From Euglena gracilis (Eukaryota): a DNA stretch of 64,000 nucleotides. The notes beneath the pieces are model-generated. The model was not told where the DNA came from, searched no databases, and saw only the letters and a list, made by a program, of their open reading frames with translations. Of this stretch, positions 1 to 63,565 are shown piece after piece. Each line of letters starts with the position of its first letter. Position 1 is the stretch's first letter. A program made the translations under genes and the position numbers. The stretch spans positions 30,694,395 through 30,758,394 of the forward strand of contig CP154954.1 in NCBI GenBank assembly GCA_039621445.1, read 5' to 3'.

Positions 1-907
1 GCCGCCGGATCAGCTCCTCGTCCGTCCACCCCGGCAGCCGCCTCGTGCTCACCAGGATGTCGTCGAAGTAGGGGTGGGTGTAGGCGGAGACGTTGTGGCA
101 GGTCGCGTCGATGTCCCTCTGGAGCAGCGCCGGCCCGACGTTGATGCCCTGGGGCACCACGGTCCACTGCCAGAGGCCGCCGGGCAGGTGGATGTTGGTG
201 ATGGGCCGGCTTTCCTCCGCCATGGCCACCTGGTGGAAGGCGTCCCGCAGGTCCACCGTCGAGAAGATCTCACAATTCGCCTGCTCGCTCACGATGTCCT
301 CCGTCAGCGGTAGGAGGTAGGAGTCCATCTGCAGCATCTTGTTGGTCAAGCTGTAGTCGCACACCAGCCTCCACTTGCCCGACTTCTTGCGGATGGGGAA
401 GGCGGCCGCCCTCCACGGCCCCCGCCCCGCCTCCAGCTTGCCGTCCGCCAGGCACTCCCGCTCCATCTCCCTCAGGGCCTCCAGCCGCTCGCCCTTGAGG
501 TTGATGATCCGGCCCACCACTGGGATTGCCCCCGGCTTCAGCCTCAACACCGCCTTCCCATGGGTGCCCCGCGCCTGGGGGCACGGCCACACCCGCTCAC
601 GGAACACCCGGCCTTCGAACTCGTTGATGATCTCGTCCCGCAGCTGCCGCGCCAAGGGATGGCCGACGTCGTCTTCTGTCTCCACCACCCCTCGCACCGC
701 CTTCGCCGCTTCTTCGGCCTCCTTCAGCATCATCGCCACTTCTCGGAATGCTGCCTCGTCCGTGGTCAGCTGCCGCATCTTCTTCACCGTGGAGAGGTAG
801 CCGTCCAGCTCGTCTTCGTCTTCATTGCCATCTTCCTCCTTCTTCTCTTCGTCTCCACGCCGCCTCAGGATCCACTTGGGGTCCGCGTGGAGCTGCAAGG
901 TGTCGGG
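1..907 (-). pseudogene. Gypsy-type reverse transcriptase domain, open to the window edge
   Basis: Manual translation: AFPIRKKSGKWRLVCDY...FSTVDLRDAFHQV...WQWTVVPQGINVGPALLQ...PYFDDILV (YFDD at 59-70). Separated from the protease by a +1 insertion near 952 and a TGA at 908-910. Confidence 0.92.
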
Positions 908-954
908 TCACGGCTGCACATCCAGCCGGTTCTCCCGGAGCCACGGATACCGCC

Positions 955-1260
955 AGAATGAGGTCCGTGCTGATGCAGCCGTTGTACGCCACCACCTTCG
1001 TCGTCCACGTCCTCGGTCTCCGCTCCTCGTCGTCGGTCTGGGCCGCGAACGACAGCTTCAGCTCTGCTTCTCGTTGTCCTCCGGGTAGCGCCTCTCCACT
1101 CACCGTGCGTAGCACCAAGGGTCTCGCCGCCGCGTGGAACACCGACTCCGGGAACAACTCCTTCTTCACCAGAGAGGTCTGCGCCGCCGTATCGATCAAG
1201 GCCTTCGCCTGGATCTTCATCCCGCCTGCCTCCACCTCCACATCCATCAGCAGCTGGTAG
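955..1260 (-). pseudogene. Retropepsin-like aspartic protease domain
   Basis: ALIDTAAQTSLV (DTG-like, here DTA) and TDLIL[G]YPWL once the frameshift near 952 is corrected. Confidence 0.8.
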
Positions 1261-1394
1261 CACCCCCCACGGTGCTCCATCCGGCCGACCGTGAACGGCC
1301 GGTTCGGGAGGTGCTGCCACGGCCGCACCACCACCTTCTGCACCTTCTTCGCCGCCTCCGCCGCCGCCACTTCTTCCCGTGCCTTCTCCCCCAG

Positions 1395-1997
1395 GCACAG
1401 GTACCGCACCACCCCCTCCGGGATGCGGTAGGCTTCCGCCCTCGTGCACCTGCGCTCGCCGCCACTGCCTCCCAGCTGCAGCCGATGTCGTCGTACGCCG
1501 TCTGGTCCTTCCACCATGCTGCCGCACTTTCCACCACAGATGACGTCGTCCAGCTCCTTCGCCATCGCGTTGCTGACCCAGAAGCGGGTCGGCTTGCGAT
1601 ACCCGTACTCCGCGAAGCGGCAGTAGTCCACATCCACGTACCGCACTCCGCGCAGGACTCGTCGCCACCGCAGCAAGCCGAACCTCGGGTTTTCAATCCA
1701 CCACCGCGTAGGCGCCAAGTACTGCACCAGCTCCCTCGTGGCCTTCACCACCGCGTCCGCCATGCGGAGCCTCCTCTTGCGGGTGGTGAGGGCTGTGGAG
1801 TACTCTTTACAGGGCGGGGACGCCGCGATGACCTCGAAGTGGCCAGGAGCGTACTGCTCCCAGTACCTCCACTTCCTCACGTCGGCCACGATGTCCGGCT
1901 TCCTCTTCTCATCCCAGTCCACGCTGATCACCTTGAAGCCCATCTTCTTCAGCGCTCTTCTCACACTTCCCGTTCCGGAGAACAGGTCCAGCGCCCA
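1395..1997 (-). CDS. C5 cytosine DNA methyltransferase domain embedded in the retrotransposon polyprotein
   Basis: Within ORF 822-2069: motif I LDLFSGTG, motif II/III VISVDWD...ADV, catalytic motif IV ASPPC, motif VI IENP, motif VIII-like YRKPTRFW, motif X-like AYRIPEGVV. In frame with the protease, no stop between them. Confidence 0.9.
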
Positions 1998-1999
1998 TC

Positions 2000-4900
2000 T
2001 TTCCTTCTCTTCCTTCGCCGCCTTTTTCACCGGCTCTGTCTTCTCCTTCTTCGCCGGTGCTTTCTTCACCTCCTTCGCCGGTGCTTATCTTTCTTGTGGT
2101 GGTGTCTTGTGGAGACTTGGTGATGCCTTCGGTGATGATGTTGTCGGTGTTGTTGATGGCGATGACGTAGATCCTGGTAGACTCGATCTCGATGCTGTCT
2201 TCGTTGCCGATGCGGTCGGCGTTGATTAGGACGATGATGTCTTCGTTGCCGGTGCCGTCCGCGTTGATGAGGACGATGATGTCACCTTCGCCTTCGGCAC
2301 ACTCGGTAATGTTGATGGGGACGATGGTGTCGGCTTCGCCTTCGACACCTGCCGCAGGCAGGGTCTCTCCCCTTCCTTTGGAGACTTCCTGCCTCTTCTC
2401 TTTTTTTGGACCAGCCGCCATCCTTCTTCTTCATACTCCACCGCTCTTACCAGCCTCGTCCCTGGTGCGGATGTCGTCTGGGGGGTTGACTGCCGGTCCA
2501 GGCCCTTCCCCTCGGGACCTGGACGGCCCCGTCATTGCTGCGTCGATGTCGTCCCGGCCGCTTCTCCTTTGCCGGATCCTTTCTCAACGCCTTTGACTTT
2601 CCCCTTACCCTTGCCTTTGCCTTTTCCACCATCTTTCCCCTTGGCTTCGCCGCCTTTGCCGGTCCATCCTTCATTCCACGGCTGCTGGTTGCCTTTGCCT
2701 CGGCCAGCCCAGCCTTGGGCATCGTTGGAGTCCTTGGTCTCGTCCACCTCCTTCGCTTAACCTTCCTTTTCTTTCTTCACCGCTTCCTTCTTCACTTCCT
2801 TGATGTTGGACTCCTCCTGGACTCCTTGATTGGCCTTGGTGTCGGTCTCGTCATCTTCATCTTCGACATCCACTTCCCGCTGCCATCTTGTGGGTGCCGG
2901 CGGTTTGCGGTGGACCGGCTCGGGGTCGCCCATGGTGGCGGCCCGCTGGTCCAAGCTCAGCCACCGCACCATGAGGTCGTTGACTTGGGTGGCGGTGAAC
3001 TCCACGGTGTCCGGGGCCACCCGGACGATGGCTCCACCGGAAAGCTTCTGCCGGTCGTACACCGCCTTGATGGCCGCCCGGTGGTCGTCATCCGCCGGGA
3101 CCACCTTGATTCTTCTGCCTTGGCGATCCACTTTCTTCGGCAGGGTGGGCTGATGGCTGCACATCTGGCTGGGGAGACATCCCGGTGCCGAACGCCACCG
3201 CGGGTGTCTGATGCATGGCATGCGATGGGTTGGTGTGGACGGCTTGCTGGTACACCGTGCCTTCGGCACACTGCGGATCGGTGCCTTCGGCACCCAGCGG
3301 CTGGCTTGACACGGGCACGGAGACTTGGGAGACTGGTCGGACTTGGACTCGGACAGACTGGGCAGCAGCCACCGGCACCGGAACCGGTGCTGGCGGCTTG
3401 GACATGGCGACGGTCGCGGCTTGCGGGTGGGATGCCGGATGCTGCACTGCTCGGTGCGCTGGTGGGGCGGCGGTGCTGGGGGGACGCGATGCCGGTGCAG
3501 ACGGATGCGACGACAGCGCGCACTGCTGCACTTGCGTGCGGGACGGCTGCGGATGGGACGCTGCACGCTGGACAGCGGAGGACGACGCTTGGCGCTGGGA
3601 CACGGACAGCGGCTCTGCTCGGATGTCTGCGGTGCTCGGTCGCCGGGGAAATGCATACGCTGTTTGCGGCATGGATATCCCTTCCCTTGCCGGGTGCGCG
3701 GTGGTTAACGATGAGGACCGCTCTGCCGGGGCTCTGGCCGCTCCCGCCGATGCAGCCTGGGGGGCGGTTTGGTAGGGATCGGCTGCCCCTCGGGTTGGCG
3801 GCGTGGTCTGAGCCGCCGCGGACACCGGGGGTCCCCCGGCCGGGCGGAGACCGGACATCTTGACAGACCACTGCTTGATCTCCTCCTTCGCCATCTGTAT
3901 CTCCCTGAACAGCGCCGTCACCACTTGGTCAACCTCCCGGAGGGCCTTCTCCAAGTACACCCTGCACTTGCCCTCCAACTCCACAGAAATCCGAACGGCC
4001 AGCTTGTTGAAATACTGCACCTGCAACCCCGGGATCTCGGTCTTGGAGTTGAGCTCCATCCGCTGTAATCGCTCCTCCATCTCCCGCACCACCGTGGCGA
4101 GCTCCCCCCGCGTCACCATGGTTCCCCGGAGACGGGCCACCTACACTTCCGTTTCCGGGTCCACCACCCGGGCCGCACCCTCGCCGGGGCCTGCACGCAC
4201 CATCGCCGTCAGGCCTTGCACCTCTGCCTCGCGGCATCGGTGCTCAGCCTGCACGGCGGCGATTGCTTGGGCCGCCTCATCCACCGCCTTTCTGGCGGCC
4301 GCCTTGGCTTGCGCCACTTGGCCCTCAAGCCGTCCATGCTGGGCTTGGATGGTCTCCATGAACTGCGCGATGACCTTGCCTTGCCCCTCCGCCACTTGCC
4401 GATAGGCCGCCGCGGACGCATCCTTCGTGGCCTTGATCTCCTTGTCCATCTCCTCCAGCGCCGCGGTGGGCCAGTCATCCCATATCTCCCGGGTGCGGTT
4501 GCCCAGGAGGTCGAGCTGGGCCACCACCTGCCCGAGACTCGTCTCCACGCCGCGGACTTGGACACCCACGGCGTCGATGCGGCTCGTCAGCCACACCGCC
4601 ACCTCCTCCGACACCCCGGGATACTCGTCCTGCATGGGCTGGTCTTGCACCGGGACTTCATCCCCGGCACCCATCTCCTCCTGGTACATCTCGGGGGCCA
4701 TATCTTCCTCGTATCTCTCGCCTGCGGGCTCAGCCTCGTCGTACATCTCGGTGGTCTGCTCGTACGTCTCCTCTGCCACGTCATACTCCACCTCTGCCGC
4801 GTCCTCGTCCATCTCCTCCAGGATTCTTGGCATCTTGAGTGGCCGGTGGGACGATGAGGCTTCAGAAAAGGGGGTTCGTTCCCCCCACACCCTTAGATCC

Positions 4901-5037
4901 CCCTTGCGGCTCCCTCTGGGGGTGATGGTGGGGGAGAACAGCAGCGCCCCCGCCGCGGCCAACAGCGGGAAGCGGGCCCGCAGCGGCGTGGCGTCCCGCG
5001 GGGACTCCAGCCGGAACTCTGGCAGCAGGAGCGGCAC
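2000..5037 (-). pseudogene. gag-like region: acidic/coiled-coil N-terminal part, Pro/Ala/Gln-rich linker, GKG repeats, Ser/Thr-rich linker
   Basis: ORFs 4141-5037 and 3088-4140 share a frame across a TAG. ORFs ending at 2757, 2532 and 2226 share the MTase frame. The region lies between the PBS and pol. Confidence 0.6.
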
Positions 5038-5451
5038 CAGCGCAAACGCCGCCGCGGACGCCGCCGCGGACGCCGCCGCGGACCCCCCCGGGGACGGCGT
5101 GGCTGCTGGGGTGGTGCGCAGGGACTGGGACAGGTACGAGGGTGGGGATGGGGTGGGCCGGATGTGGAATGTGAGCTGGAGTGGGAATGGGAGCTGGGGG
5201 TTTGGGCTTATCGCCTTTTCTTGAGCAGGGCTAGGTGGGGAAATGGGGGATTATTTTTCTGCTGTGCACACTGAGGGGGACTGAGCAGCGGCATGCGTGT
5301 GCGGAGGATTGGGATTGGGTATGGGGCGGTCTTTTTCATTTTGGGGAGTCCCATGGTGGGGGACACCCACCACCGGGACGGGGTGAGCCTGTGGAGCCGG
5401 ATCCATCTTGTCGGTGTGGTTAGTTCCCAGGAAATTTTGTTCTGTGAAAAA

Positions 5452-5463
5452 CCTCTGCTACCA
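5452..5463 (-). promoter_or_regulatory. Primer binding site for initiator tRNA-Met
   Basis: Minus strand TGGTAGCAGAGG is complementary to the ...CCUCUGCUACCA 3' end typical of eukaryotic tRNA-iMet, and lies just inside the putative LTR. Confidence 0.8.
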
Positions 5464-5466
5464 GTT

Positions 5467-5676
5467 TCCCGATTGTTGTTGTTTTTGTCTAGCCTTCACT
5501 CCCGGGGGTCCGTGAGGGGGTACCGGCGGGGTGGGGGGTAGGCGCGACGGGCTCTGGGGAGAGGAGTAGGTTCGGGATACTCCCTTTCCCACGTAGGATT
5601 TTTTCCCGGGGACCGAAGGCCCTCCTTTTTGGGGAGTGGTTGGAGGGGGGAGTCCGGCTTGGCGTCCCTTCCGGCA
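5467..5676 (-). repeat. Putative 5' LTR, about 210 bp
   Basis: Starts TGCCG and ends CGGGA (imperfect TG..CA) a few nt before the PBS; composition switches to CpG-poor DIRS sequence at 5677. The partner LTR is outside the window. Confidence 0.55.
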
Positions 5677-6672
5677 GTGGGGGGGTTTTAGGAAAAGGCC
5701 TGGTTGCCCTCCCCTAGGCTTCTTGTCCCCCAGCACCAACACCTTTTTTTGCTTGTACTGCTCCTCCTGCGCCAGCAGATATCCAATCCTTTGTAATCTT
5801 TTGCTTTCTCCGCCCTTGGGATTTTTGACTTTCTTGAACTTTTGCACTTTCTTGGCTCCAGTGCCTTTCCTTGAATTCCTGTAATTCCTTGAAAATTGAT
5901 ACAGTTTGACTTTGGTCTTGATTCAGCCGGCACAATCTTGAATTGAAACCATAGGTAAAGAGAGGGAGCCTGCAGTGAAAACATCAGAACAGTTAGAGTG
6001 CCCTGGCCTTGGTATTGTTGGCCACCCTGGCCTTTGTTCCATCGGCCGCCATGGCCATTGCTGTTTTGGCCGCCATGGCCCAGCTTGCTGTTGTGGCCGC
6101 CATGGCCCAGCTTGAACAAGTTATTGGTGTAACTGGCAGAATGTTAGCCCCAATGGTCCTGGCTCCAATGGCCGTAGTGGCCTGCTGGTTGTTGCTTCTG
6201 CCCATTTCGGGGTCTTCTGACCACGGTCCGTGGCCATCACTTTGGAGGGTTTGGGTTCTGGAAACTTCTGTGGGGAAAATTCTTTTGGGGAAGGGGCAGC
6301 CACGGTTCGCCACAGTTGACCCGCGCCGTCAGGTTGTCCAGCTGCTGCTGCTGCTCCCTCTTGAAGTTCTCCAGCGCTGTGCTTCTTTGAAGTTGCATCT
6401 TTCATTGAACTCTTTCGAAAAATTCAACAACTTTTTATTTGAAGTTCTGCACGAGCGTGACTTTCTGGATAAATTGACTGTATTGATTGTCTTCTTCTTT
6501 TCTCAATTGGTGAGGTCTTTGAAGTTCCTTTCTTCTGGGTGTCGAAGGGCAAATTCGGAATCAGCCAACTCCGGCGAAAAAACTCTTAACCCAGCGCCAC
6601 GAACAATCCAAACAACACCGCCGGCGAGCAAGGCATGGCCTCACAAGGGCAAAGTGCGGAGCCCGAGGTGTC
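5677..6672 (-). mobile_element. 5' part of a DIRS element (left terminus plus decayed gag-like ORF), interrupted by the Gypsy insertion
   Basis: TCAGCCAACTCCGGC and GTGCGGAGCCCGA match the left terminus of the 7864-12437 element; CPST-RRK and QQQL...PW segments resemble its gag region. Confidence 0.7.
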
Positions 6673-6684
6673 TGCTGGTTTGCC

Positions 6685-6900
6685 ATTGGAGGAAGTCCGG
6701 AAGCTTGGTCGGTGGAAAAATTTAGGAGCCTTTCAAGCCCATTATTTGAGGCTTGGGGTCGTATCCAAAAATTAAAAAATTATGGCCCAAAGGGGGGTGC
6801 GCGGTCCCTCAGCACCTCGCAGTGCGGAGCCCGAATGGTCTCGGACTCCAAAGAAACAGGAAGGGCGAGAAAGGGACCAAGAGGGCGACACACAAGAAAA
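6685..6900 (+). mobile_element. DIRS fragment: YR C-terminus plus ICR-like sequence
   Basis: EEVRKLGRWKNLGAFQAHYLRLGVVSK followed by CGCAGTGCGGAGCCCGAATGGTCTCGGACTCC, nearly identical to the reverse complement of about 8290-8460. Confidence 0.85.
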
Positions 6901-6904
6901 TCCA

Positions 6905-7560
6905 TGAAAACAGGGATTACATGTAAATCCTTTAGAAATGCATTCTGCAATCTGCATTCTGCATCACGAGAGGCAGAAAACTCCCCCCTCCACCCCAATC
7001 CGAGCCTCAAATAGCAAAATCCCTTCTGTGTTGGCAACATACTCGGGGGCTAAGTCGTTTTTGTGGCTCACTTTGGCACAGGCGGGGGGGGGGGGCTCCG
7101 CCCCCCGCACCCCCCCCTCAAATAACAAAATCTATGTTGGCAATAGACTTGGAGGGATAAGACCTTTTTTTGTGCAAATTTTGCCTTATACTGAAAATTC
7201 AATGGTCCGGATGGGTCCAAATAAGTGTCTTACGCCTAAATAAACACCCCCAGATGGAAATCGTTGGTCAGTGGGGGGGTCGGTGGGCCCTTGATGGGGG
7301 TCCGGAGGGGTAAAAAAACCACTGATGAAACAGGGATTACACGAAAATCCTTTAGAAATGCAAGCATTCTGCATCACGAGAGGCAAAAAACTCCCCCCTC
7401 CACCCCCATCCGAGCCTCAAATAACAAAATCCCTTCTGTGTTGGCAACATACTCGGGGGCTAAGTCGTTTTTGTGGCTCACTTTGGCATAGGCGGGGGGG
7501 GCTCCGCCCCCCCCGCACCCCCCCCCTCAAATAACAAAATCCCTTCTATTTTGGCAGTAG
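6905..7560. repeat. Direct duplication of about 230 bp (about 6905-7140 and 7325-7560)
   Basis: Both copies contain GAAACAGGGATTAC...GCATCACGAGAGGCA...CATACTCGGGGGCTAAGTCG...CTCAAATAACAAAAT. Confidence 0.85.
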
Positions 7561-7777
7561 ACTTGGCTTGATAAGACCTTTTTTTTGTGACTTATATTGA
7601 AAATTCAATGGGGAGAGGTGTACTTTGTCAAAAGTGGCCCAAAATGGACATTTTCCCTCAATTGTTTTGCATATTCACCCCCGATTGGGGGGTTCTGTAG
7701 CCATTTGGGTGATTTAGACAAAAAAAATTCCCAGGGGGGGCTTAAAAGTCGGCAGTTTTGGCCCGTTAGTACACTAG

Positions 7778-7858
7778 AGTGGGTAGTCGGCCGACTACCA
7801 ATTGGTCCGCCGACCAATTAGTCGGCCGACTACCCAATTGGTCGGCCGACTACCCACT
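7778..7858. repeat. Palindromic mini-array of GTCGGCCGAC units
   Basis: Four units (one variant); outer arms AGTGGGTAGTCGGCCGAC and GTCGGCCGACTACCCACT. Confidence 0.8.
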
Positions 7859-9335
7859 ACCCCCTCGGACTCCCACGACAGAGGAAGGGGGAGGAAGGGA
7901 CCAAGAGGGCGAAGCACAAGAAGATGGTGAGGTCCTGCTTTCCTTGCCGGCTGTTCTGTTCTGGTGTGTTTGTGCGTGCGCGGGGGGTGCTTCTTACTGC
8001 GCCTTTGTTGCCGGAGTTGGCGATGATGAGGCCGCGTCCGACACCTTGGCGAAGCTGAACCGCCGTGGCTCCGCCCCCCCCCCTCTCCCATGGTCGCTTG
8101 GTGGGGGGCCCCCCCCCTGATGGGGATGGTGGTCTCTTTCTGTGTTTCTGGGTGGGTGGCTGGGGTTGCTTGGTTGGGGGTCCACTTTCTGGTTGGGTTG
8201 TCTTTCTTTTTCTGCTGATTTTTTGGGTGGGAGGGTTGGGCTCACCATCTTCTTGTGCTTCGCCCTCTTGGTCCCTTCCTCCCCCTTCCTCTGTCGTGGG
8301 AGTCCGAGACCATTCGGGCTCCGCACTGCGAGATGGTGAGGTACTGTGCACCCCCCTTTGGGCCATAATTGTTTGAATTTTTGAAACGACACCCAGCCTC
8401 AAATAATGAGCTTGGAAGGCCCCAAAATTTTTCCACTGGCCCAGCTGCTGGACTTCTTCCACTTGCAAACCAGCATTTTTCCACCATAAAACCCCAGCCC
8501 CTCTGGTGCTGTGGGGTTTCCAGTGGGTGGTGTCCACCCCCCCCTCCTGCAGAATTTCTTTGGTCAGGGAATTCACCCTTTCTGAAGTCAAAGGTCTTTT
8601 GCCATCCAAAGACCACAACAAATGATTTTTGTGCCCAACCATGTGGGCTGTCCTTCCCACATACTCTTTCAATAAATGCCAGGGGCTGATGAGGGGGGTG
8701 TGTGGCAAAACCAAAATCTCCTCCCACCTTGGGCACTGCCATCCTTTCCTTTGCAATAAAATGAAAATTTTTTCTCCTACGAAACTGATTTTTCGCTGTG
8801 TCCTGGCTAAATCAACCCCCCTGTGGAGGGCCAACAGCCTCCAACAGATGATGAGCCTGTTTCTGAGCTCTTTCACAGATAGGTCTGAGAGGGGTTTGGA
8901 TTTCCTGATGATGTTCTCCAAGAAATCAGTGGGGTCCCAAAAATGGGCATACTTGCAGACATTGGAATTCCATTTCCTCTTCAATGGAGACAAAAGAGGG
9001 GAAAACCTCAATGACCCAAACCCTGGGAGTAATAAAACTGCTGCATATGCATTTCTTGCAGTGTTGAGGCTGTGGGCAGCCAGGTCAAGGATGGCCTCAG
9101 CCATCCTGTGGACTGTGCAGTCCTGCAGGGGCACCCCTTTGTGCAACAATTGGCCCATCAAAGCCTTGAATGCTGAATCATATCTTTTGACATTCCCCAG
9201 ATTTTTTATGTAAGTGTCGATACTGGACATCGAAACTTCCTGGGATTGTAATATTTGCCTGACACAATCAAGCAGGCCAAATTCCACCTTGGGGGGGGCA
9301 TCTCCTCCCCCCAGCAGTTGGTGAACAGACCCCAC
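7857..9335 (-). CDS. DIRS tyrosine recombinase (YR)
   Basis: 492-aa ORF with RHRY-type motifs: HRGVDL, HSTRG, GQW...FQAHYLR. Confidence 0.92.
   Translation of the reverse strand: MGSVHQLLGGGDAPPKVEFGLLDCVRQILQSQEVSMSSIDTYIKNLGNVKRYDSAFKALMGQLLHKGVPLQDCTVHRMAEAILDLAAHSLNTARNAYAAVLLLPGFGSLRFSPLLSPLKRKWNSNVCKYAHFWDPTDFLENIIRKSKPLSDLSVKELRNRLIICWRLLALHRGVDLARTQRKISFVGEKIFILLQRKGWQCPRWEEILVLPHTPLISPWHLLKEYVGRTAHMVGHKNHLLWSLDGKRPLTSERVNSLTKEILQEGGVDTTHWKPHSTRGAGVLWWKNAGLQVEEVQQLGQWKNFGAFQAHYLRLGVVSKIQTIMAQRGVHSTSPSRSAEPEWSRTPTTEEGGGRDQEGEAQEDGEPNPPTQKISRKRKTTQPESGPPTKQPQPPTQKHRKRPPSPSGGGPPTKRPWERGGGGATAVQLRQGVGRGLIIANSGNKGAVRSTPRARTNTPEQNSRQGKQDLTIFLCFALLVPSSPFLCRGSPRG
7864..8021 (-). repeat. DIRS right ITR plus right extension
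   Basis: 7922-8021 is the reverse complement of about 12316-12414; 7864-7931 is the reverse complement of about 8241-8308. Confidence 0.9.
8241..8340 (-). repeat. DIRS internal complementary region (ICR)
   Basis: Joins complements of both termini (plus strand ...GGAGTCCGAGACCATTCGGGC...) and is bracketed by the 10-bp inverted repeat CTCACCATCT/AGATGGTGAG. Confidence 0.9.
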
Positions 9336-11150
9336 TGGGGGGGGGTACCAGCAAAACCTTGCTGCCTGGCTGCCTGATTGACATTAATTGGCGCCACCAT
9401 GATGTCGAAGCCCAGTGGGGTACAATCAACAGACAATTCAGGTCTGGGTTTAGCATCAATCTCTGAACCCACTGGGGGATGATGCTCCAGGGAGGGTTGG
9501 CATAAACTGGGGGGAGACCCCTTAAATCTGCCTTCAAGGCATCCACCAGCAAGGCCCCTTGGTGGGGGTATCGACAAATGAACTTGGGGAATTTTTTGTT
9601 GCTGGGTGTGCAAAACATGTCCACCTCTGGGGTGATGTGGTGCTTGAAAAATTTCAGAATCTGGTGAAAAATGTTCATGTTCAGGGTGTAATCCCCTGGA
9701 TCTTTTTGCTCCCTGGTCAGGGAGTCTGCCAATTGTTCCTTTGTGGGAACCCAAACCACCTGCAAATTGATTTGCTTTTCTTGGCAATGGTACAGAAGGG
9801 GTTTTAGGATGGAATTTAGGTATGGCTTTTTGCCTCCCCATTTTGTTAAATAACTTACTGCCACCTGGCTGTCCACATGAAGAACAATGGTTTGTTTTGG
9901 TTTTGCCAAAGCCTTTACAGTTTCCACTGCAGACATCAATTCTTTTTGATTGATGTGAAGGACATGCAGGTCCCTCCAGAAATCTTGGACCTTTTGACCA
10001 GAATTTTTGTCCAGCCCCCCCCATTGCCAGGTGCTGCTGTCTGAGAACAGTTCTTGAGAGGCCTGGGATTGAAAGGCTCTGCCCACACCTGGCTGCAAAA
10101 ATGCCTTTAACTCCACAATTTGATCTTTGACCCCCTGGGGAATGGTTAGGGTGTGGTCCCAACCCCACTTTGTGTGCAAATCCACCATTTTGCAAAGTTG
10201 ATCTGTCAGAATTCTGAGAAAAGGCATTGAAACTAAATAGCTTCTGACTTGCCCTACAATAGAGCTGAGTTTTCTGCAGCTCATTTTTTGTGCTGTCAGC
10301 ACCTTTCCTAATTCCTTTCTTAGGGATTTTAATTTTTCCTGTGGAATTTCCAGCTGGCCTTTTTTCAAATTGATCCACTGGCCCAAATGCTTTATTTCCT
10401 GTGTTGGTTCCAGACATGATTTGGGGAGGTTTATTCTGAAACCTGCCAGCAAAAGATCTTTTTTCATTTCTGCCAAATGATGGGCTGCTGTCTTTTTGCT
10501 GGGGGCTAACAGCAAAATGTCGTCCAGGTAGATGAAAACTACCTTTCCTTCCTTCCTCCATTTCCTTTCCCAGACTCTCATGAGAGTCATAAACTTTTGT
10601 GGCAGGCTGCTTAACCCAAAGCATGCAGCTTGAAATTGCCACGTTTCCCCCCCCCCACCTGCATGCAAACATGCTTTTCCAGGCTGCTGTGCAGCTTTAA
10701 ATGGAAATAAGCATCTTTCAGATCTATTTTTCCACAGAACCAACCCTTTCTGAGATATGGGAATATGTTTCCCATGTGTTCCAGTCTGAACTTCTGGGGG
10801 GTGAAATGTTGATTTAACTGTCGACAATCTGAAATTAGTCTTTCCTTTGTCTTTCCCCCTTCCTGTTTGGAAATGATAAAATAAGGGACAAAATGTTTTG
10901 CTTCCTCTGGGGGGATTTGCCTGGTTGCCCCTGCACATTCGTATTCCCTCAGAATTTTTTGGGCAGTCATTATTTCTTGGGGAGTTTTGAAGGGAACTTT
11001 TAAGGACATCTGAGGGGGGAGGGGAAGATCTGCCCTGACCCCTTCCCTTATCAGGTTTAATACCTCTGTGCTGGCTCCTGCCTTGACCCAATGGGGAATG
11101 CTGGCCTGCAGGGCCTTGTAAGGGGGTACCCCTGGGTGTAATGTGTCTGG
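9206..11150 (-). CDS. DIRS pol: RT, RNase H and Dam-like N6-adenine methyltransferase domain, with two frameshifts at homopolymers
   Basis: KIDLKDAYFH, CFGLSSLP, IYLDDIL (YLDD 10519-10530); RNase H FSDSS...HINQKEL...VDSQV...LADSLTR; MT VDMFC...VDAL...YANPPW. Frameshifts fall in the C-run near 10647-10657 and the G-run near 9337-9345. Confidence 0.92.
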
Positions 11151-11257
11151 GGATTCCACAGGCCCCATCACTGGGGTCCTGCCTGGCTGCCCCATCACTG
11201 GGGTCACACCTGGCTGCCCCATCACTGGGGTCCTGCCTGGCTGCCCCATCACTGGGG

Positions 11258-12175
11258 TCACCTCTGGCCCTGCCATGGGGCTGTCCAAAGACAGGCTTTC
11301 CCCCTGATTTTGAAAGATTGGGGAAAGTCTGGTCTGCAATGGGGAGGTACATATATAGCTGGGGGGTGTGGGCTGATTACCTTCTGGGGGGGCCCTGGTG
11401 TAGCCAATCTTGGGCCTCCCCCCCAAGGGCTGATGTGATCTTGAATGCACTGGCCTCCAATGGCCACTTGATTTTGATTGAAATGGCCTCCATTGGCCTT
11501 GAAGTCTTGATGCTTCTCCTGGCCTCCATTGGCCTTTTGCATATAATGGCCTCCATTGGCCTTGATATTTTGATGCTTCCCCTGGCCCCCATTGGCCTCT
11601 TGCATATAATGGCCTCCATTGGCCTTCCCCTGAAGGCGGGGTTGGTTGCTTGGATGTGCAGCTCCTGAGGGTTTTGTGTTTGAGAGAGCTGTGGGGTAAG
11701 TTGGACATACCTTTCCCCCGTGGGAGCTTTCCAGGTTTGGACACAGGCTGCCATAGCTTTGCTCCTGGGCCCACTGCCCTCTTGGATGATGGCTTCCATA
11801 GCCATGATTCTGGGCCCCAGGCCCTGTCCAATGATGGCTGCCATAGCCTTGGTTTTGATTTGAATCCTTTGGATTGAGGCTGCCATAGCCTTTGCTTTCT
11901 CCCCTGAAAGGGGAGGAACTGAGAAAAAGGGGTGGAGTCTGTTGGACCTGTGATGGTGGTCCCCCTCTGTCTTCTCTTCCTGACCACAGTTGTCCATGTC
12001 CCATGGCCAACATTTTTAGGGGGGGAGCCTGAAACCTTGAATTTTGAAATCTTTGAAGTACTGGGTGGTGGGGGGGTTGCGATGGCCACGGACGGACGTG
12101 TCGCTGCCGCCCCTCCAGCGTCTGCAGCTGCTGCTGTGTCTCCACCTTCCCCGGCTTCAGCTCTTTGAAATTCAT
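11258..12175 (-). CDS. DIRS gag-like ORF1 (low complexity, overlaps the pol frame)
   Basis: First ORF inside the left ITR; Gln/Gly/His-rich with ANGG repeats; a related copy lies at 5.7-6.6 kb. Exact start uncertain. Confidence 0.55.
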   Translation of the reverse strand: MNFKELKPGKVETQQQLQTLEGRQRHVRPWPSQPPHHPVLQRFQNSRFQAPPLKMLAMGHGQLWSGREDRGGPPSQVQQTPPLFLSSSPFRGESKGYGSLNPKDSNQNQGYGSHHWTGPGAQNHGYGSHHPRGQWAQEQSYGSLCPNLESSHGGKVCPTYPTALSNTKPSGAAHPSNQPRLQGKANGGHYMQEANGGQGKHQNIKANGGHYMQKANGGQEKHQDFKANGGHFNQNQVAIGGQCIQDHISPWGGGPRLATPGPPQKVISPHPPAIYVPPHCRPDFPQSFKIRGKACLWTAPWQGQR

Positions 12176-12315
12176 TTTTCATGGAAGTCCCGTTGTTGAT
12201 CTCCGAGAGTTGAATTCTTCCGTCAGGAAGTTGAAGGTCCGAAAATTTTCGTCCACTTGAGTTCGTAGAAGTAAAGTTCTTTCTCCTTGAGGTCGAAGGG
12301 CAGAAATAGGAATCA

Positions 12316-12437
12316 GCCAACTCCGGCAACAAAAAGCAGTAAGACGCACCCCCCGCGCACGCACAAACACACCAGAACAGAACAGCCGGCAAGGAAAGCA
12401 GGACCTCACCATCTCGCAGTGCGGAGCCCGAATGGTC
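12316..12437 (-). repeat. DIRS left ITR
   Basis: Reverse complement of 7922-8021; outer 33 nt complementary to ICR 8308-8340. Confidence 0.9.
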
Positions 12438-12461
12438 CCCCCAGTCTACGGTTTGGCACTC

Positions 12462-12558
12462 AAAAACACACCAGAACAGAGCAGCCGGCAAGAAAAGCAG
12501 GACGTCACCATCTTCCTGTTTCGTGAGGGTCCGATAGACCGTGCGGAGCCGAACGGTC
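12462..12558. mobile_element. Additional diverged DIRS terminal fragment
   Basis: AAACACACCAGAACAGAGCAGCCGGCAAG...CACCATCT...GTGCGGAGCCGAACGGTC repeats the ITR with substitutions. Confidence 0.65.
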
Positions 12559-13689
12559 GAGCGTTGCTGACACTGGGCCTGCCCGCAGATAAGCGATATA
12601 TGCCGCCTTAAAAAGCTTCTAAAGCTTTCAAAACCTGAATTTTGGAAAATTTAAAAAAAATCCCCTTAAAAATAATGCGTGGGATGTGCCCCCCCCCATT
12701 TTACCGGGCGGCAAGCTTCGCCTTGACCCTGAAGAGAGAGAGCAGAGCTCAGCGACCCCTCTTAATTCCATTTTCTGCAAAACAATTGGAAGTTTGACAA
12801 GGGGCGCACTCCACAAGGGGGACGGGTTTACATATATAAAAGGGACCCCCCCCCCAAGGGCCCCCCAAGGAATTCTGGATCAAGCATGCAGCCCAGCAAC
12901 CCGCAGCAGCATGCCAACGAATCGTCCGACTCCATCTCCGAGACCGAGTCGGGGTTGAGTGGTGCATCATGATACAAAATACATTGCGATGGCCATACGA
13001 TTTGATTTGCAACTATAATTTACATACCACGTGTGGAAGGTAAACGTACTGCTTCTCGAGGCTTCTGAAACCACATCCCCAAGATTCGCTCTCCTGTGCC
13101 AGAGGCATAGTTGAATGGTTTGGCAACTGTTGATAAAAAAAAACTTTTCAGATTCTCAAATGGATCAAACGTGCCATCCAATGCATTTCTGGGGGAAATT
13201 GTGTTGTGCTTGGAAACAAAACGTATGTAGGTTGCAAGATTGTCAAGAAATGAGAATGAATGATCCAAAGTCTCGAACAACAGCAACAAACAGAAGACAA
13301 CACAAACCATAAAAGTTGTCAGAGGGCAACTGAAAGAAAATTAACCCAGGACCACATTTTCCAAAAATCACAACAACTAAGTGCAAAGAGAATTATTACA
13401 ATGAAAGGAATTCTATTGTCATTATGAATGATTATTTTTCATTCACATGGACGTGATGGTCCTGATTTTCACACACACACACATCATCTCAAGCAAATAT
13501 TACACATTCAAAAACAAAAATATACTTTAACGAAATTTAGTTGCATTCTAATCTCAATGGCAGGATGAAAGAAAAAGAACTCATGATGAAGAATTTTTAT
13601 CTGGAAATGTCCCACCCCTCTATGGGTGTGGAAAACGGGATAGATGTGGGCAAGCACCTGTAAAGTTCTGTGGCATTGTGGAATGTAGG

Positions 13690-48008: not shown

Positions 48009-51000
48009 ACAAAAAATTTCTTTCATTTGGAATCAAAAATTCGACCCACCCCCAAATGAACCAAAATGACCTCGGAGAAGGCAAGGGATGAATAGCCAAG
48101 TTGTGTCAATTGATCGTTTCAGGTGGCTGAAGGATTACCCTGCCCCCCATTGGACATTTGATTTTCGGATATTTTTTTTGAAACCCTGTTGCAAGTCATC
48201 GTTGTTCGCGTTGGGGATTTTCGGCAGGGAGATCTTTTGGCCAACTTCTTGATTTTCGGATTTATGTGGCACACAAACATCACAGTTTTTAGAATTATCA
48301 TCCCCCCCCCAGGGGAAAGATGTTTGTGCCACAAGGAGGTGCGCATTGACATTCTTTCACAATTTCTCGGTATTTTTCTGCCCCCCCCCTTTTCATGCAA
48401 CGTCACCGATTTTTGTTTCACTTTCAAAGTGATTTCAAAAGCGAATTTCTGAAGTCACCGCATTTTTGGGGGGGAATTTTCGTATCGAATCAACAGTTTT
48501 TTTTTGTTCATTACCATATTCTGTGACCCCCCTATTCGCGGGTGTGAAGCTCGATCATTTCGATCCCCAGGATTTTCAGTACGCATGATTTTTCTGCCAA
48601 GTACTCCGACGGTATGTTTTTTCGTTCTTCCTCCCATTCATGGGTTAAGATGAGACGTCGAAATTTTCCGATGCCTTTTCAAGCATAGTGGGCCGGCCTG
48701 TTTTTTTTTTGACGTTGTTTTTTTTTTTTGTTTTTTTTAATTCTAACAATGTTTTTTTAAAAAAAACAAAAAAAACGCCCAGTGGGTTTTGCATAAAAAA
48801 ATTTTGGAATGCACTTTTTCAATGATTTTTGGCAACTTCTGGGCAATTTCTGCCAAAAACTTCCATCCACAAAAAATGAAAAAAGTCACAAAATTCCATT
48901 TTTGTTGCATTTTTGGATGTTTTTGACCTTTTTTGGTAGTTTTTGAACTTAGTAGGATTCAAAGAATGGTTTGGGAGTTTCATAACGAGTTTTTTCAATG
49001 AAATTTTCCTTTTGTTTTTTTTTGATGTTTTTTTACTGTTTTTTTTTTAAAAAAAAACATGTTGTTTTTGTTTTTTAAAAAAAAACAAAAAAATGCCGAC
49101 TATGTTTTCAAGGCCGTTTCTTTCCCAAATTCTCAAAAATTTTGTATTTTCTGGGAATTTTTGATTGTGTATGCATCATCGGTTTAGTTGTTGATCACAG
49201 GTTTTCATCATCCCCCCCCCAGCCGATTGAGTCGTGTTTTCCTTTTTATCGCTTTTTTTTGATTTTTTGAGATTTTTTGATTCCGCCGCCCAAGGGAATT
49301 GGTTTATAAATTCTCCCCCTCCTTTTTTTTTCCGGCAGGACCCTGATTTTTTTGCCATTTTTGCCATTCGTCGTTTCGTTCGGTAATTTTTGAAGGAATT
49401 CTGGTTGTTTCATACCCCCCCCCCTTTATTTGACCCCCCCCCTTAATTGAGCATTTGGGTCAGGGGAAAATTTTTTTTCATGCGCCGAAGGCGCCGAAAA
49501 TTTTTTTGCCCTATTTCTAAAGGAATTTTTGCCCCCCTTATTTGACCCCCCCCCTTATTTGAGCATTTGGGGGGTCAAATGATTCATGTGCTTGGCTACA
49601 CCAGCCAACCACAAGTCAAAACAGTGGGGTAAAAAACAATTCTACCAACGGTGGAAATTCAGGGTTGCGAAAATGAACGAAAACGTGCAATCAGATTACT
49701 TGGTGTAATACAGATAAAATCAAATGGCAGCCTCCATTGTCATTGAAGGGGGGGGCGATGAATCACGACCACATGGATCTTAGCGTAATGTTTGGAATCG
49801 ACCATGGACCGAGTTCGAGCGATGAGCAACATCCTGGAGGGCGGGCAAAAATCTACCTCCAATCGCCATTTCGCCTCCTTGACACCCACCCGAAGTGGGT
49901 ATTAGTCGGGGGGCTGGGGGTTAAAAAATGTAAATTATGGCCCTGGCTTGCCTAAATCCCTTCCCTCCCTTCCCCTTACCTCCCTTTCCCCCTTTCCCAC
50001 CACATAGCTCGAATATCCACCTCCCTTTGCCATAACCCTTACCCTTGCCCTTACCATTCCCCTTCCCGTCACCCCACTCCGCGCTTGGCCTTGTCGACGC
50101 CTCCAACGGTGTGGCTTCCGAAACGAGGATGTCCGCCAACGGTCGGGGGGGCAGCCCCACTCCTGGCGTATCTCCCCGCCAGCCCATTTTTTTTGTTGGG
50201 GGGGGGGCTGATTCGGGAACCGATATGAATCGAAGGGACGTTGAATCATGGTAAAAAAGTCAAACACCCTCGCAATCTTGTCGGCTCTCCCTTGGTTACC
50301 TCATCGATAAAAATTGTGGCACTATGCCGACCGAATGGCCGGGAGTCTCAAAAACTCCGGCCTCGAAATGGAACGGGCGGCCTCAAAAGCCGATTCCTTG
50401 GGAGTCAAATGAGGTCAGCTTCAAATATAGTGCCACCCTATCCCCTTTGACGAACTTCACTGAAATACGTTTTGTGAACCGTGTGGAGCGAGGGTGTAGG
50501 GGATAGGCACATCATCATTGATGCGGTGTCAATGATTTTGGGTAACCAGCCGACCCCGTTCCAATGCATAATGATGGAAAAATCTGGGCTGGTGGTCATT
50601 CCTTTGTCGCAGGACCGAGAGGGTCAAATGGGGGTGGCGGGGTTGACCCGCCTATTCCCGCCCTCGGCATTGGGGGGCCTCGGTGGCCGGGGCCGCCGGC
50701 GGAGCGCCGATGAGAGCGGGGGCTGTGGGAGCCACGTCCATCACTAAAAAAAAAAATCAAAAAAGGTGAAAAAAAATGGAAATTCAGCATTTCGGCTCCC
50801 AATACTATCCCTTTCGGCCGAATGTGAGAGGGGGGGGGTGAACTCATGAACGGTGAAAATGTCGACAAAAAAAATTCGGTCGAAATGCATTGGAAAACAT
50901 TGTTGTGGTTACGGCCACGGGGGGGGGGGTATCTTAGACCTTATCAACGGATCCAAATTTTGCACCAGGGTCTTAAAAATTCTCTTCCCTGAACAAAATT

Positions 51001-63557: not shown

Positions 63558-63565
63558 TCCCGGCA

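What the first reader, a model, noticed from the sequence alone, without database searches (positions are those of the whole stretch)
822..2069. Gypsy LTR retrotransposon carrying its own C5 cytosine DNA methyltransferase fused upstream of the protease
Seen: a full C5-MTase motif set (FSGTG, SPPC, ENP, RKPT-W, RIP) with a short Cys/His-containing variable region (CGGKCG...H). It is in frame with a retropepsin, upstream of an LTR-type RT, inside an element with a tRNA-iMet PBS. The MTase has no stops although the flanking gag and PR/RT regions do. Known: DNMT-bearing retrotransposons have been reported in Symbiodinium dinoflagellates and the alga Klebsormidium; I know of none from euglenids. 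Inference: an independent capture or horizontal acquisition. The protease could release the MTase inside the particle to methylate the new cDNA, for self-silencing or host mimicry.
Basis: partly seen in the sequence, partly recalled or inferred. Interest (0 to 1): 0.85.

Follow-up and report, generated by a model that had tools for sequence, protein, structure and literature searches.

The report
Retrotransposon carrying its own cytosine methyltransferase
A dead copy of a very abundant jumping gene encodes its own DNA cytosine methyltransferase, of a short virus-like type, between its coat and protease genes; this is real, but closely related elements were described in a 2026 preprint.

Summary
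On the minus strand, window 2084-822 is one 420-codon frame holding a complete C5 cytosine-methyltransferase motif set. A retropepsin follows in frame, then an LTR-type RT that runs off the window start. A 12-nt primer-binding site lies upstream at 5463-5452.

The window copy is dead. It has in-frame stops, a frameshift and an altered protease active site, and several of these defects are absent from sibling copies.

The methyltransferase is not a one-off. Thousands of contigs from the same organism cover it as deeply as gag and RT. Of 40 longer database relatives, 36 are polyproteins with protease and/or RT.

All 58 retroelement-borne methyltransferases fall on one side of a well-supported branch, away from 152 stand-alone viral or metagenomic relatives. 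The best structural match is a Tetraselmis virus 1 enzyme.

The window sits in a subclade ordered gag-DNMT-PR-RT-RH-IN-chromodomain, with no adenine methyltransferase (DAM) seen. This subclade nests among relatives that also carry DAM, which is the "EpiLTR" architecture reported for Euglena gracilis in a May 2026 preprint.

So this is a new member of a known kind. Self-methylation of new cDNA is inferred, not shown. The host organism was not identified.

The parts
5452..5463 (-). Primer-binding site TGGTAGCAGAGG. The 5' LTR must lie at higher coordinates and was not delimited.
   Evidence: Single exact match in the window, with 0.01 expected by chance. It lies about 620 nt upstream of the first ATG of the gag-like frame. 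Complementarity to the 3' end of initiator tRNA-Met is recalled, not tested. No tRNA gene is in the window.
2088..4833 (-). gag-like region. It is low-complexity and coiled-coil-like, has no Pfam family, and is broken in this copy.
   Evidence: First ATG at 4833-4831. In-frame stops at 4141-4143, 2757-2759, 2532-2534, 2226-2228 and 2085-2087, and a frame change somewhere between 3091 and 3704. At 4141-4143, 2757-2759 and 2085-2087 the sibling copies carry sense codons. No Pfam family above threshold.
1380..2003 (-). C5 cytosine DNA methyltransferase domain (residues 28-235 of the 2084..822 frame). All catalytic motifs are present. In place of a normal target-recognition domain it has a short region with a conserved Cys/Cys/Cys/His set.
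   Evidence: Motifs located. Homologues. Cys92 and Glu131 are invariant in 125/125 retro-side and 187/187 other rows. Cys155, Cys183, Cys187 and His200 are kept in 124-125 of 125 retro-side rows. Model pLDDT 89.2. Fold matches.
915..1262 (-). Retropepsin, in the same frame as the methyltransferase. The active-site motif reads D-T-A in this copy.
   Evidence: LIDTAAQ at 1179-1199. Sibling copies differ at 1186 and give Gly at that residue. The region is colinear with the protease regions of P0075, P0076 and P0116. Pfam RVP is weak, E 0.042.
908..952 (-). Break between the protease and RT frames: one extra base near 952 and a TGA at 908-910.
   Evidence: tblastn with P0075, P0076 and P0116 switches from frame -3 to frame -1 at about 950. 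Contigs of other copies lack one base at 952: 6 contigs in each DNA run, carrying nearly all the depth there. They also differ at 908. The effect on the codon was computed.
2..907 (-). Linker and N-terminal part of the reverse transcriptase, cut by the window start. RNase H, integrase and any chromodomain or DAM would lie outside the window.
   Evidence: RVT_1 at E 5.2e-21, on residues 172-289 of this frame (window 41-394). It is 64% identical to the RT of P0075.

Best explanation
Window 1-5463 (minus strand) is the 5' two-thirds of a dead copy of a very high-copy Ty3/gypsy-type, probably chromovirus-like, LTR retrotransposon.

In this family the Gag-Pol polyprotein carries an integral C5 cytosine DNA methyltransferase between gag and the protease.

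The enzyme module:
- It is about 210 residues long and of a short virus-like type.
- It keeps all catalytic motifs.
- A Cys3-His cluster, probably a small zinc site, replaces the usual target-recognition domain.

Origin of the module (inferred from the trees):
- It entered LTR retrotransposons once, from or shared with short viral methyltransferases.
- It was then moved to several positions in Pol, with or without an adenine methyltransferase (DAM).

Likely mode of action (inferred, not shown):
- The protease frees the enzyme inside the particle or pre-integration complex.
- The enzyme methylates the newly made cDNA.
- A new insertion then enters a heavily CpG-methylated genome already carrying the host's default mark.

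The copy in the window is itself inactive.
For: Anatomy:
- The order PBS, gag-like region, DNMT, PR, RT is on one strand, with DNMT and PR in one open frame.

The methyltransferase belongs to the family:
- With reads laid at 85% likeness or more, 5717 contigs (run X1) and 2604 contigs (run X14) of 'organism A' lie on window 1-5300.
- All 30 bins are covered.
- Summed depth over the DNMT bins (886-2124) is 121k-225k in X1. Elsewhere it is 89k-251k.
- No listed joint removes the domain. 15 joints were shown and 31 were not.

The arrangement recurs in diverged elements:
- 36 of 40 longer relatives have a protease and/or RT match.
- P0075, P0076 and P0116 are colinear with the window through DNMT, PR and RT.
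- P0116 (2513 aa) reads DNMT, RT, RNase H, integrase, chromodomain.

Functional constraint across the family:
- Catalytic Cys and Glu are kept in 125 of 125 retro-side rows, and Arg167 in 121 of 125.
- This holds at only 40-60% overall identity.

Fold:
- The model has pLDDT 89.2 and pTM 0.83.
- It matches DNMT3A/3B, MET1, M.HhaI and DNMT1 at E about 1e-7 or better.
- The best viral match is the Tetraselmis virus 1 putative cytosine methyltransferase: E 1.8e-18, TM 0.73/0.82, rmsd 2.1 over 218 columns.

One origin within retroelements:
- FastTree, 312 rows: one branch (support 95) has all 58 retroelement-proven rows and none of the 152 viral or metagenome loci.
- IQ-TREE, 48 rows: the split has support 100/99.

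Host context:
- Flanking DNA has CpG observed/expected of 0.35-0.57, against 0.87 in the element. This fits a CpG-methylating host.

Precedent:
- Some retrotransposon DNMT domains methylate CG de novo in yeast, and self-methylation of cDNA was proposed (PMC5890265, abstract and section 10).
Against: - No activity, cleavage site or methylation data exist for this enzyme.
- In the 2018 yeast assay only the SymbioDIRS-Dnmt3 domains were active. The LINE and Gypsy ones gave nothing, which the authors called inconclusive.
- The window copy is dead, and its methyltransferase part has private substitutions, one of them next to the catalytic Cys.
- Pfam PF00145 on this copy is below the curated threshold.
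- The 3' part of the element and the second LTR are outside the window. So LTR pairing, integrase, chromodomain and presence or absence of DAM are inferred from relatives that are only 52-60% identical in the methyltransferase.
- Contig depth is not copy number. Contigs cannot show that each individual copy is full length.
- The trees are unrooted with respect to other DNMT families. So 'virus to retroelement' could equally be 'retroelement to virus'.
- The runs taken as RNA (X16, X17) are only guessed to be RNA. They give low-depth contigs that are 95-99% alike at best.
Confidence: 0.8

Rival explanations
1. One-off chimera. A methyltransferase gene, of host or viral origin, was inserted into or misassembled next to a single retrotransposon copy.
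For: Only one copy is present in the window, with no second LTR. The preprint warns that in E. gracilis nested insertions or assembly artefacts may create chimeric elements.
Against: The methyltransferase bins are covered by contigs of two independent DNA runs as deeply as gag and RT. DNMT and PR share one frame. 36 of 40 longer relatives carry PR and/or RT in the same protein. Three relatives that are 44-65% identical are colinear across DNMT, PR and RT.
Confidence: 0.03
2. The domain is kept by the family but is not a DNA cytosine methyltransferase in practice. It could act on RNA (DNMT2-like), or serve as a SAM- or nucleic-acid-binding structural module of Gag-Pol.
For: The target-recognition region is tiny. 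Authors of PMC12344493 note that for orphan DNMTs without companion domains one cannot predict DNA versus RNA substrates (passage read). An earlier scan note (e1-2850094) describes a catalytically dead DNMT fold in a diatom gypsy Pol.
Against: Here the catalytic Cys, the ENP Glu, motif I and motif VIII Arg are nearly invariant, unlike a pseudo-enzyme. The closest relatives are viral enzymes annotated as DNA methyltransferases: phrog_757 and the Tetraselmis virus 1 protein. Those names are annotations, not assays.
Confidence: 0.12
3. The methyltransferase acts after integration, in trans on the host genome or on sibling copies. It could spread or reinforce CpG methylation, or dampen the element's own activity. 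On this view it does not act on cDNA in the particle.
For: The family is extremely abundant. The flanks are CpG-depleted. The 2018 paper raises the idea that such elements could shape the host epigenome (abstract). The preprint reports that 5mC is nearly the default at CG in E. gracilis and that LTR expression there is low.
Against: Nothing in the sequence distinguishes this from cDNA methylation. The position between gag and PR suggests packaging with the polyprotein. The host has not been identified.
Confidence: 0.25

Closest known systems
Euglena gracilis 'EpiLTRs': LTR retrotransposons with chromodomain + DAM + DNMT (bioRxiv 10.64898/2026.05.21.726589, May 2026; abstract, passages, and sections 7 and 11 read)
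   Same: Ty3/gypsy-type LTR element carrying a C5-DNMT in the polyprotein. The window's DNMT falls in one clade with database polyproteins of exactly this make-up. P0091 reads DNMT-DAM-RT-RH-IN-Chromo. P0093, P0088 and P0089 read DAM-DNMT-RT-RH-IN-Chromo.
   Different: No DAM lies between PBS and RT in the window. The window's starred 9-row subclade, including the full-length P0116 and P0083, shows none. The preprint screened for DAM first, so DAM-less relatives may not have been collected. It places the DNMT sister to DNMT4, which I could not test. Its figures and supplements were not visible to me. I did not show that the window or the database proteins come from Euglena.
KnitGypsy-Dnmt3 of Klebsormidium nitens (PMC5890265, section 9 read)
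   Same: An LTR Gypsy element with a DNMT inside the Pol polyprotein. Key residues are conserved and purifying selection is reported.
   Different: That DNMT is a Dnmt3 by the authors' phylogeny. The present one is a roughly 210-residue enzyme whose best relatives are short viral methyltransferases. Here the domain sits between gag and the protease.
SymbioLINE-Dnmt and SymbioDIRS-Dnmt3 of Symbiodinium (PMC5890265, section 6 read)
   Same: A retrotransposon-encoded DNMT with conserved catalytic residues, very high copy number, and a host with pervasive CG methylation.
   Different: The element classes differ (LINE, DIRS). None of the 58 long relatives scanned here had an endonuclease or tyrosine-recombinase domain at E<=1e-5. 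Of those 58, 21 had RVT_1, 11 rve and 7 Chromo. A sequence relationship to the orphan SymbioLINE DNMT was not tested, because no reference sequence was at hand.
Short stand-alone viral C5-methyltransferases (phrog_757; Tetraselmis virus 1 putative cytosine DNA methyltransferase A0A2P0VN45; IMG/VR contigs including giant-virus bins)
   Same: Same length class, same motif order, same Cys/Cys/Cys(/His) mini region, and 27-48% identity. Structural match TM 0.73/0.82 and rmsd 2.1.
   Different: These are stand-alone genes in low-G+C viral contigs (median G+C 0.32-0.34). None of the 160 loci has an RT or protease like the window's. Of 6 loci checked, 3 encode a D5-type primase/helicase protein. They lie on the other side of a 100/99 branch.

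Membership tests
C5 cytosine DNA methyltransferase (Pfam PF00145 fold) | Motif I FxGxG (SAM binding) | tested here: met
   FSGTG at 1968-1982. Phe35 and Gly37 are each kept in 110 of 125 retro-side rows; 14 further rows have gaps there.
C5 cytosine DNA methyltransferase (Pfam PF00145 fold) | Motif IV Pro-Cys with the catalytic cysteine | tested here: met
   SPPC at 1809-1820. Cys92 is kept in 125/125 retro-side and 187/187 other rows.
C5 cytosine DNA methyltransferase (Pfam PF00145 fold) | Motif VI ENV/ENP glutamate and motif VIII arginine | tested here: met
   ENP at 1686-1694, with Glu131 kept in 125/125 rows. KPTRFW at 1578-1595, with Arg167 kept in 121/125 rows.
C5 cytosine DNA methyltransferase (Pfam PF00145 fold) | Score above Pfam's curated threshold | tested here: not met
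   The window copy scores 17.5 bits against a cut-off of 22. Relatives pass, for example P0091 at 28.2, P0119 at 27.2 and P0092 at 27.1. Pfam matches only about the first third to half of the domain.
C5 cytosine DNA methyltransferase (Pfam PF00145 fold) | Three-dimensional fold of solved C5-MTases | tested here: met
   Model pLDDT 89.2. Foldseek against PDB gives DNMT3A/3B, MET1, M.HhaI, DIM2 and DNMT1 at E 3e-8 to 5e-7, probability 1.00 and TM about 0.45-0.55.
C5 cytosine DNA methyltransferase (Pfam PF00145 fold) | Transfers methyl to C5 of cytosine in DNA | not testable with these tools
Ty3/gypsy (chromovirus-like) LTR retrotransposon | Pol order PR-RT-RH-IN | tested here: inconclusive
   PR then RT are seen. 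RH and IN lie outside the window. The closest long relatives have RT-RH-IN(-Chromo).
Ty3/gypsy (chromovirus-like) LTR retrotransposon | Paired LTRs with a target-site duplication | tested here: inconclusive
   The 3' end is outside the window. No repeat of the 5' region occurs elsewhere in the window.
Ty3/gypsy (chromovirus-like) LTR retrotransposon | tRNA primer-binding site next to the 5' LTR | tested here: met
   TGGTAGCAGAGG at 5463..5452, unique in the window. Which tRNA it matches is recalled, not tested.
EpiLTR (DNMT + DAM + chromodomain LTR element; 2026 preprint) | DNMT of the same lineage as in DAM+DNMT+chromodomain polyproteins | tested here: met
   The retro clade has support 100/99. 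DAM-bearing rows are interleaved with DAM-less rows, needing 5 label changes on the tree. That these rows are the published elements is not verified.
EpiLTR (DNMT + DAM + chromodomain LTR element; 2026 preprint) | DAM (PF05869) domain in the same element | tested here: not met
   No Dam match in any frame piece from gag to RT. None in P0116, P0083, P0076, P0075, P0077 or P0078 of the window's subclade. The part of the element beyond the window start is unseen.
EpiLTR (DNMT + DAM + chromodomain LTR element; 2026 preprint) | Chromodomain at the C-terminus of integrase | not testable with these tools
   It would lie outside the window. It is present in relatives P0116 and P0083.
Dnmt3-type retrotransposon DNMTs (SymbioDIRS-Dnmt3, KnitGypsy-Dnmt3) | DNMT branches inside eukaryotic Dnmt3 | not tested
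   No reference Dnmt3 sequences were available for a tree. Structural matches to DNMT3A/B (E about 3e-8) are far weaker than the match to a viral short enzyme (E 1.8e-18).

The most novel reading that the evidence does not exclude
A mini C5-methyltransferase of viral stock was captured once by chromovirus-like LTR retrotransposons. Its target-recognition domain is reduced to a Cys3-His knuckle. Since the capture it has been shuffled among at least four positions in Gag-Pol:
- before PR
- between PR and RT
- between RH and IN
- next to DAM

It has also spread across several protist lineages.

In hosts where CpG methylation is the default state, the element pre-methylates its own cDNA so as to look like 'self'. 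The massive amplification of such elements may in turn have helped create the host's hypermethylated genome.

The DAM-less gag-DNMT-PR lineage seen here would be a branch of this radiation that has not been described.
Probability: 0.3. Interest if true: 0.7.

Novelty: new member of a known kind. Interest (0 to 1): 0.45.

Why it matters
Retrotransposons that bring their own DNA-modifying enzymes show that mobile elements can write epigenetic marks and do not only suffer them.

This case adds three things:
- The DNMT module in these LTR elements belongs to a large family of short viral methyltransferases. That gives a concrete donor pool.
- The module is highly mobile within Pol, and it occurs both with and without the adenine methyltransferase.
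- A conserved Cys3-His mini region replaces the target-recognition domain. This makes a compact enzyme that should be easy to express and test for specificity.

The general phenomenon was published in 2018. The Euglena case with DAM was published as a preprint in 2026. The finding therefore refines existing knowledge and does not overturn it.

Tried and rejected
- Own-genome search: no genome is held for this window. Sibling copies, LTR pairs and Ka/Ks could therefore not be obtained.
- Rfam over the whole window: 0 matches.
- tRNA genes: 0.
- Self-comparison of window 1-7000 against the whole window, and direct repeats in 1-9000: no second copy and no LTR.
- phmmer of the domain against PDB sequences: only a chance hit. 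The profile search gave weak DNMT1 motif IV-VI matches at E about 3e-5.
- NCBIfam: nothing for the domain.
- Earlier scan notes: none for this genome or sequence. One loosely related note came from another genome.
- Organism identity: run names are coded. The named database hits carry only a 'Genlisea aurea' label. The other large frames in the window are further retroelements, not host genes. I therefore cannot confirm 'euglenid'.
- CpG context of private changes: 6 of 18 visible G/C-to-A/T differences are at consensus CpG. That is about what base composition predicts, so there is no signal. Only 40 of 292 differences were visible.
- Runs X16 and X17 are only guessed to be RNA. Their low-depth contigs over the element are no proof of transcription.
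- DAM labels in the tree are imperfect. P0111, which I labelled DAM-less, has a sub-threshold Dam match at its truncated N-terminus. Several 'DAM-less' rows are partial proteins.
- I considered a complex prediction (dimer) and a second fold. I judged that neither would change the verdict.

Full report
**What is in the window**

The finding lies on the minus strand. Window 2084..822 is one open frame of 420 codons.

Its first 235 residues carry a full C5 cytosine-methyltransferase motif set, located:
- FSGTG at 1968-1982
- SPPC, with the catalytic cysteine, at 1809-1820
- ENP at 1686-1694
- KPTRFW at 1578-1595
- CGGKCG at 1521-1538, followed by His at 1485-1487
- YRIP at 1419-1430

About 60 residues further on, in the same frame, is a retropepsin motif (LIDTAAQ, 1179-1199).

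A second frame, 907..2, encodes the start of an LTR-type reverse transcriptase (RVT_1, E 5.2e-21). It is cut by the window start.

Upstream lie a broken gag-like region of about 2.7 kb, with its first ATG at 4833-4831, and a 12-nt primer-binding site, TGGTAGCAGAGG, at 5463..5452. That site occurs once in the window against 0.01 expected. I recall this as the complement of the 3' end of a eukaryotic initiator tRNA-Met; that was not tested. The 5' LTR could not be delimited. The 3' part of the element is outside the window, and nothing in the window repeats the 5' region.

**Is it a real methyltransferase?**

An open frame is weak evidence in DNA of 64% G+C, because other frames here are open for 300-450 codons. 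Pfam on the window copy is below threshold (PF00145, 17.5 bits against 22). The homology evidence is nevertheless overwhelming:
- 69 near-length relatives, the best 58% identical at E 2.5e-83.
- 2717 cluster representatives at E<=1e-3, and 1183 at E<=1e-10.
- phrog_757 'DNA methyltransferase' at E 3.5e-19 over nearly its whole length.

An AlphaFold model built on 25 sequences is confident (pLDDT 89.2, pTM 0.83). It matches solved C5-methyltransferases (DNMT3A/3B, MET1, M.HhaI, DIM2, DNMT1) at E 3e-8 to 5e-7. Among predicted viral structures the best match by far is the 218-residue putative cytosine methyltransferase of Tetraselmis virus 1: E 1.8e-18, TM 0.73/0.82, rmsd 2.1. The ESM Atlas likewise points to clusters of 209-219-residue viral PF00145 proteins.

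The enzyme has almost no target-recognition domain. In its place are four residues, Cys155, Cys183, Cys187 and His200, kept in 124-125 of 125 retroelement-side sequences. I read this as a probable small zinc site. That is inference; I could not inspect the model's coordinates.

**The window copy is dead, and the family carries the methyltransferase**

In this copy:
- The gag-to-DNMT frame has in-frame stops at 4141-4143, 2757-2759, 2532-2534, 2226-2228 and 2085-2087, plus a frame change between 3091 and 3704.
- The PR and RT frames are offset by one base near 952, and a TGA sits at 908-910.
- The protease reads DTA where relatives read DTG.

I laid the contigs of two DNA runs of the same (coded) organism on window 1-5300 at 85% likeness or more:
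- 5717 and 2604 contigs lay on it, at all levels of likeness. In X1 the counts were 1842 at 99% or more, 1999 at 95-99%, 1518 at 90-95% and 358 below 90%.
- All 30 bins were covered.
- The bins over the methyltransferase have the same order of summed depth (121k-225k in X1) as gag and RT (89k-251k).

In those contigs the stops at 4141-4143, 2757-2759, 2085-2087 and 908-910 are sense codons. One base at 952 is absent, and the protease residue is Gly. So these defects are private to this copy, and the family reads through from gag into DNMT, PR and RT at those points.

For the stops at 2532-2534 and 2226-2228 and the frame change in gag I have no information, because only 40 of 292 differences were listed. 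The methyltransferase part also has private amino-acid changes, one of them next to the catalytic Cys. Its freedom from stops therefore says nothing about selection on this copy.

Two runs guessed to be RNA gave 36 and 34 low-depth contigs, 95-99% alike at best, some of them over the methyltransferase. That is at most a hint of transcription of sibling copies.

**Relatives and their architectures**

A search among longer proteins gave 40 hits at 38-60% identity. Of these, 36 also match the window's protease and/or RT. P0075, P0076 and P0116 are colinear with the window through DNMT and PR (frame -3) and RT (frame -1), switching frame at about 950.

P0116 (2513 aa, 53% identical in the domain) reads N-terminal region, DNMT (627-823), RT, RNase H, integrase, chromodomain, with no DAM. 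This is the best guide to what lies beyond the window.

Other relatives place the same module elsewhere:

| Arrangement | Examples |
|---|---|
| PR-DNMT-RT | P0103 |
| RH-DNMT-IN-Chromo | P0092 |
| DNMT-DAM-...-RT-RH-IN-Chromo | P0091 |
| DAM-DNMT-RT-RH-IN-Chromo | P0093, P0088, P0089 |

I scanned 58 long relatives together; the three longest, scanned separately, were left out for the size limit. At E<=1e-5:
- 21 had RVT_1, 16 RT_RNaseH_2 and 11 rve.
- 7 had Chromo, 6 Dam and 1 a PHD finger.
- None had a LINE endonuclease or a tyrosine recombinase.

By contrast, 202 metagenome stretches and 207 IMG/VR stretches encode stand-alone relatives at 27-48% identity, some in giant-virus bins. None of the 160 loci kept has an RT or protease like the window's, and their median G+C is 0.32-0.34. 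I looked at nine large frames from 6 of these loci. Three of the loci have a D5-type primase/helicase protein, one has an SF1 helicase, and two have nothing recognisable.

**Trees**

I cut the domain from every protein and locus with at least 85% profile coverage: 311 rows plus the window, 312 of which 297 are distinct. Rows below that coverage were dropped.

In the FastTree tree, one branch (local support 95) has on one side all 58 rows proven to sit in a retroelement, 62 rows of unknown context and 5 short proteins. None of the 152 viral or metagenome loci is on that side.

A careful IQ-TREE run on 48 chosen rows separates retroelement from viral/stand-alone with support 100/99. The 48 rows were the window, 27 retroelement proteins of known domain content, and 20 viral or stand-alone rows, 14 of them drawn at random.

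Within the retroelement side:
- DAM-bearing and DAM-less rows are interleaved, needing 5 label changes.
- The window sits in a starred (99/92) nine-row subclade with P0083, P0116, P0078, P0001, P0115, P0075, P0076 and P0077. All have DNMT before PR/RT and none has a DAM in the part seen.
- P0075 is the window's sister (94/96).

Caveats:
- There is no outgroup from other DNMT families, so the direction of transfer between viruses and retroelements is open.
- Some 'DAM-less' rows are partial proteins.
- P0111 has a sub-threshold Dam match.

**How it probably works**

Shown:
- An integral, catalytically complete methyltransferase domain sits in the Gag-Pol of an abundant LTR family.
- Catalytic residues are kept in 121-125 of 125 relatives at only 40-60% identity, which implies selection for enzyme function in the lineage.

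Inferred:
- The protease releases the domain.
- The domain methylates the new cDNA, or the element after integration.
- Insertions therefore carry 5mC from the start.

The flanks of the element are CpG-depleted (observed/expected 0.35-0.57), while the element is not (0.87). This fits a young insertion in a CpG-methylating genome.

The 2018 study showed de novo CG methylation in yeast for SymbioDIRS-Dnmt3 domains only. Its LINE and Gypsy domains gave no signal, which the authors called inconclusive (PMC5890265, section 10).

**What is known already**

PMC5890265 (abstract and sections 6, 9 and 10 read) described DNMTs in Symbiodinium LINE and DIRS elements and in a Klebsormidium Gypsy element. 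These are Dnmt3-type, except for the orphan LINE enzyme.

The preprint 10.64898/2026.05.21.726589 (abstract, passages, and sections 7 and 11 read; figures and supplements not visible) reports that:
- a subset of Euglena gracilis LTR elements encodes a chromodomain together with DAM and DNMT ('EpiLTRs');
- their DNMTs group with those of Cymbomonas elements, sister to DNMT4.

The DAM+DNMT+chromodomain polyproteins I found are of that make-up and share the window's DNMT clade. The kind is therefore known. What I did not find in print is the DAM-less gag-DNMT-PR arrangement and the link to short viral enzymes. My literature searches were:
- 2 papers
- 9 papers
- 3 papers
- 3 papers

The preprint's screen started from DAM, and its supplementary DNMT tree may already show this.

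PMC12344493 (passages only) mentions 'orphan' eukaryotic DNMTs, some from LINE elements or endogenous giant viruses.

**Limits**

- The guess is consistent with the preprint, but no tool result here proves it.
- No sibling DNA was available, so there is no Ka/Ks, no LTR pair and no view of the 3' half.

**Verdict**

This is a new member of a known kind, with moderate interest.

Noticed in passing
window 7857-12650 (-): DIRS-like retroelement next to the LTR element. It has a tyrosine-recombinase-like frame (PF00589, E 4.4e-5, below the cut-off) and an RT frame (RVT_1, E 2.5e-9). The stretch after the RT in that frame contains an 'NPPW' motif typical of N6-adenine methyltransferases (seen in the translation). 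Pfam Dam was not detected at E<=0.001.
   Followed up: partly
proteins P0107 and P0114: Two relatives are labelled 'hypothetical protein M569_12700 / M569_12800, partial [Genlisea aurea]' in NCBI. By precomputed Pfam, P0107 has PF00145 plus PF05869 (Dam). These may be retroelement fragments of a protist living in the plant's traps and not plant genes. This was not tested.
   Followed up: no
window 2479-2655: In the two runs guessed to be RNA, summed contig depth jumps to 885 and 789 here, against single digits in most other bins. The stretch encodes a Lys/Gly-rich low-complexity part of the gag-like region. It may be shared with other abundant transcripts or elements.
   Followed up: no
window 1-64000: CpG observed/expected is 0.35-0.57 from 5464 to 50000 and 0.70 from 50001 to 64000. 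It is 0.87 in the LTR element and 1.01 in its methyltransferase part. GpC is 0.87-0.99 throughout. This suggests a CpG-methylating host and a relatively young, G+C-rich element.
   Followed up: partly
window 56879-57928 (+), 59672-63205 (+), 63341-64000 (+): Three further reverse-transcriptase frames (RVT_1, E 7.5e-13, 1.3e-13 and 6.7e-9) lie in a second G+C-rich block. They are unrelated to the DNMT element by tblastn. No host gene was recognised in the window.
   Followed up: partly
window 6954-7585: Direct repeats with 410-nt spacing: a 163-nt unit at 91% identity, with shorter sub-repeats. They lie between the LTR element and the DIRS-like element.
   Followed up: no
window 2118-2273 (-): Three 42-nt direct repeats (67-88% identity to the reference copy) lie just upstream of the methyltransferase. 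They encode a repeated 14-residue unit at the C-terminal end of the gag-like region.
   Followed up: no
proteins P0092 and P0190: In these relatives the methyltransferase sits between RNase H and integrase. An earlier scan note (e1-2850094) reported a catalytically dead DNMT-like fold at the same position in a diatom gypsy element. The two could be related; this was not tested.
   Followed up: no
alignment A2: One of the 58 long relatives also carries a PHD finger (E 4.3e-10). That is another chromatin-reader module joined to this methyltransferase.
   Followed up: no
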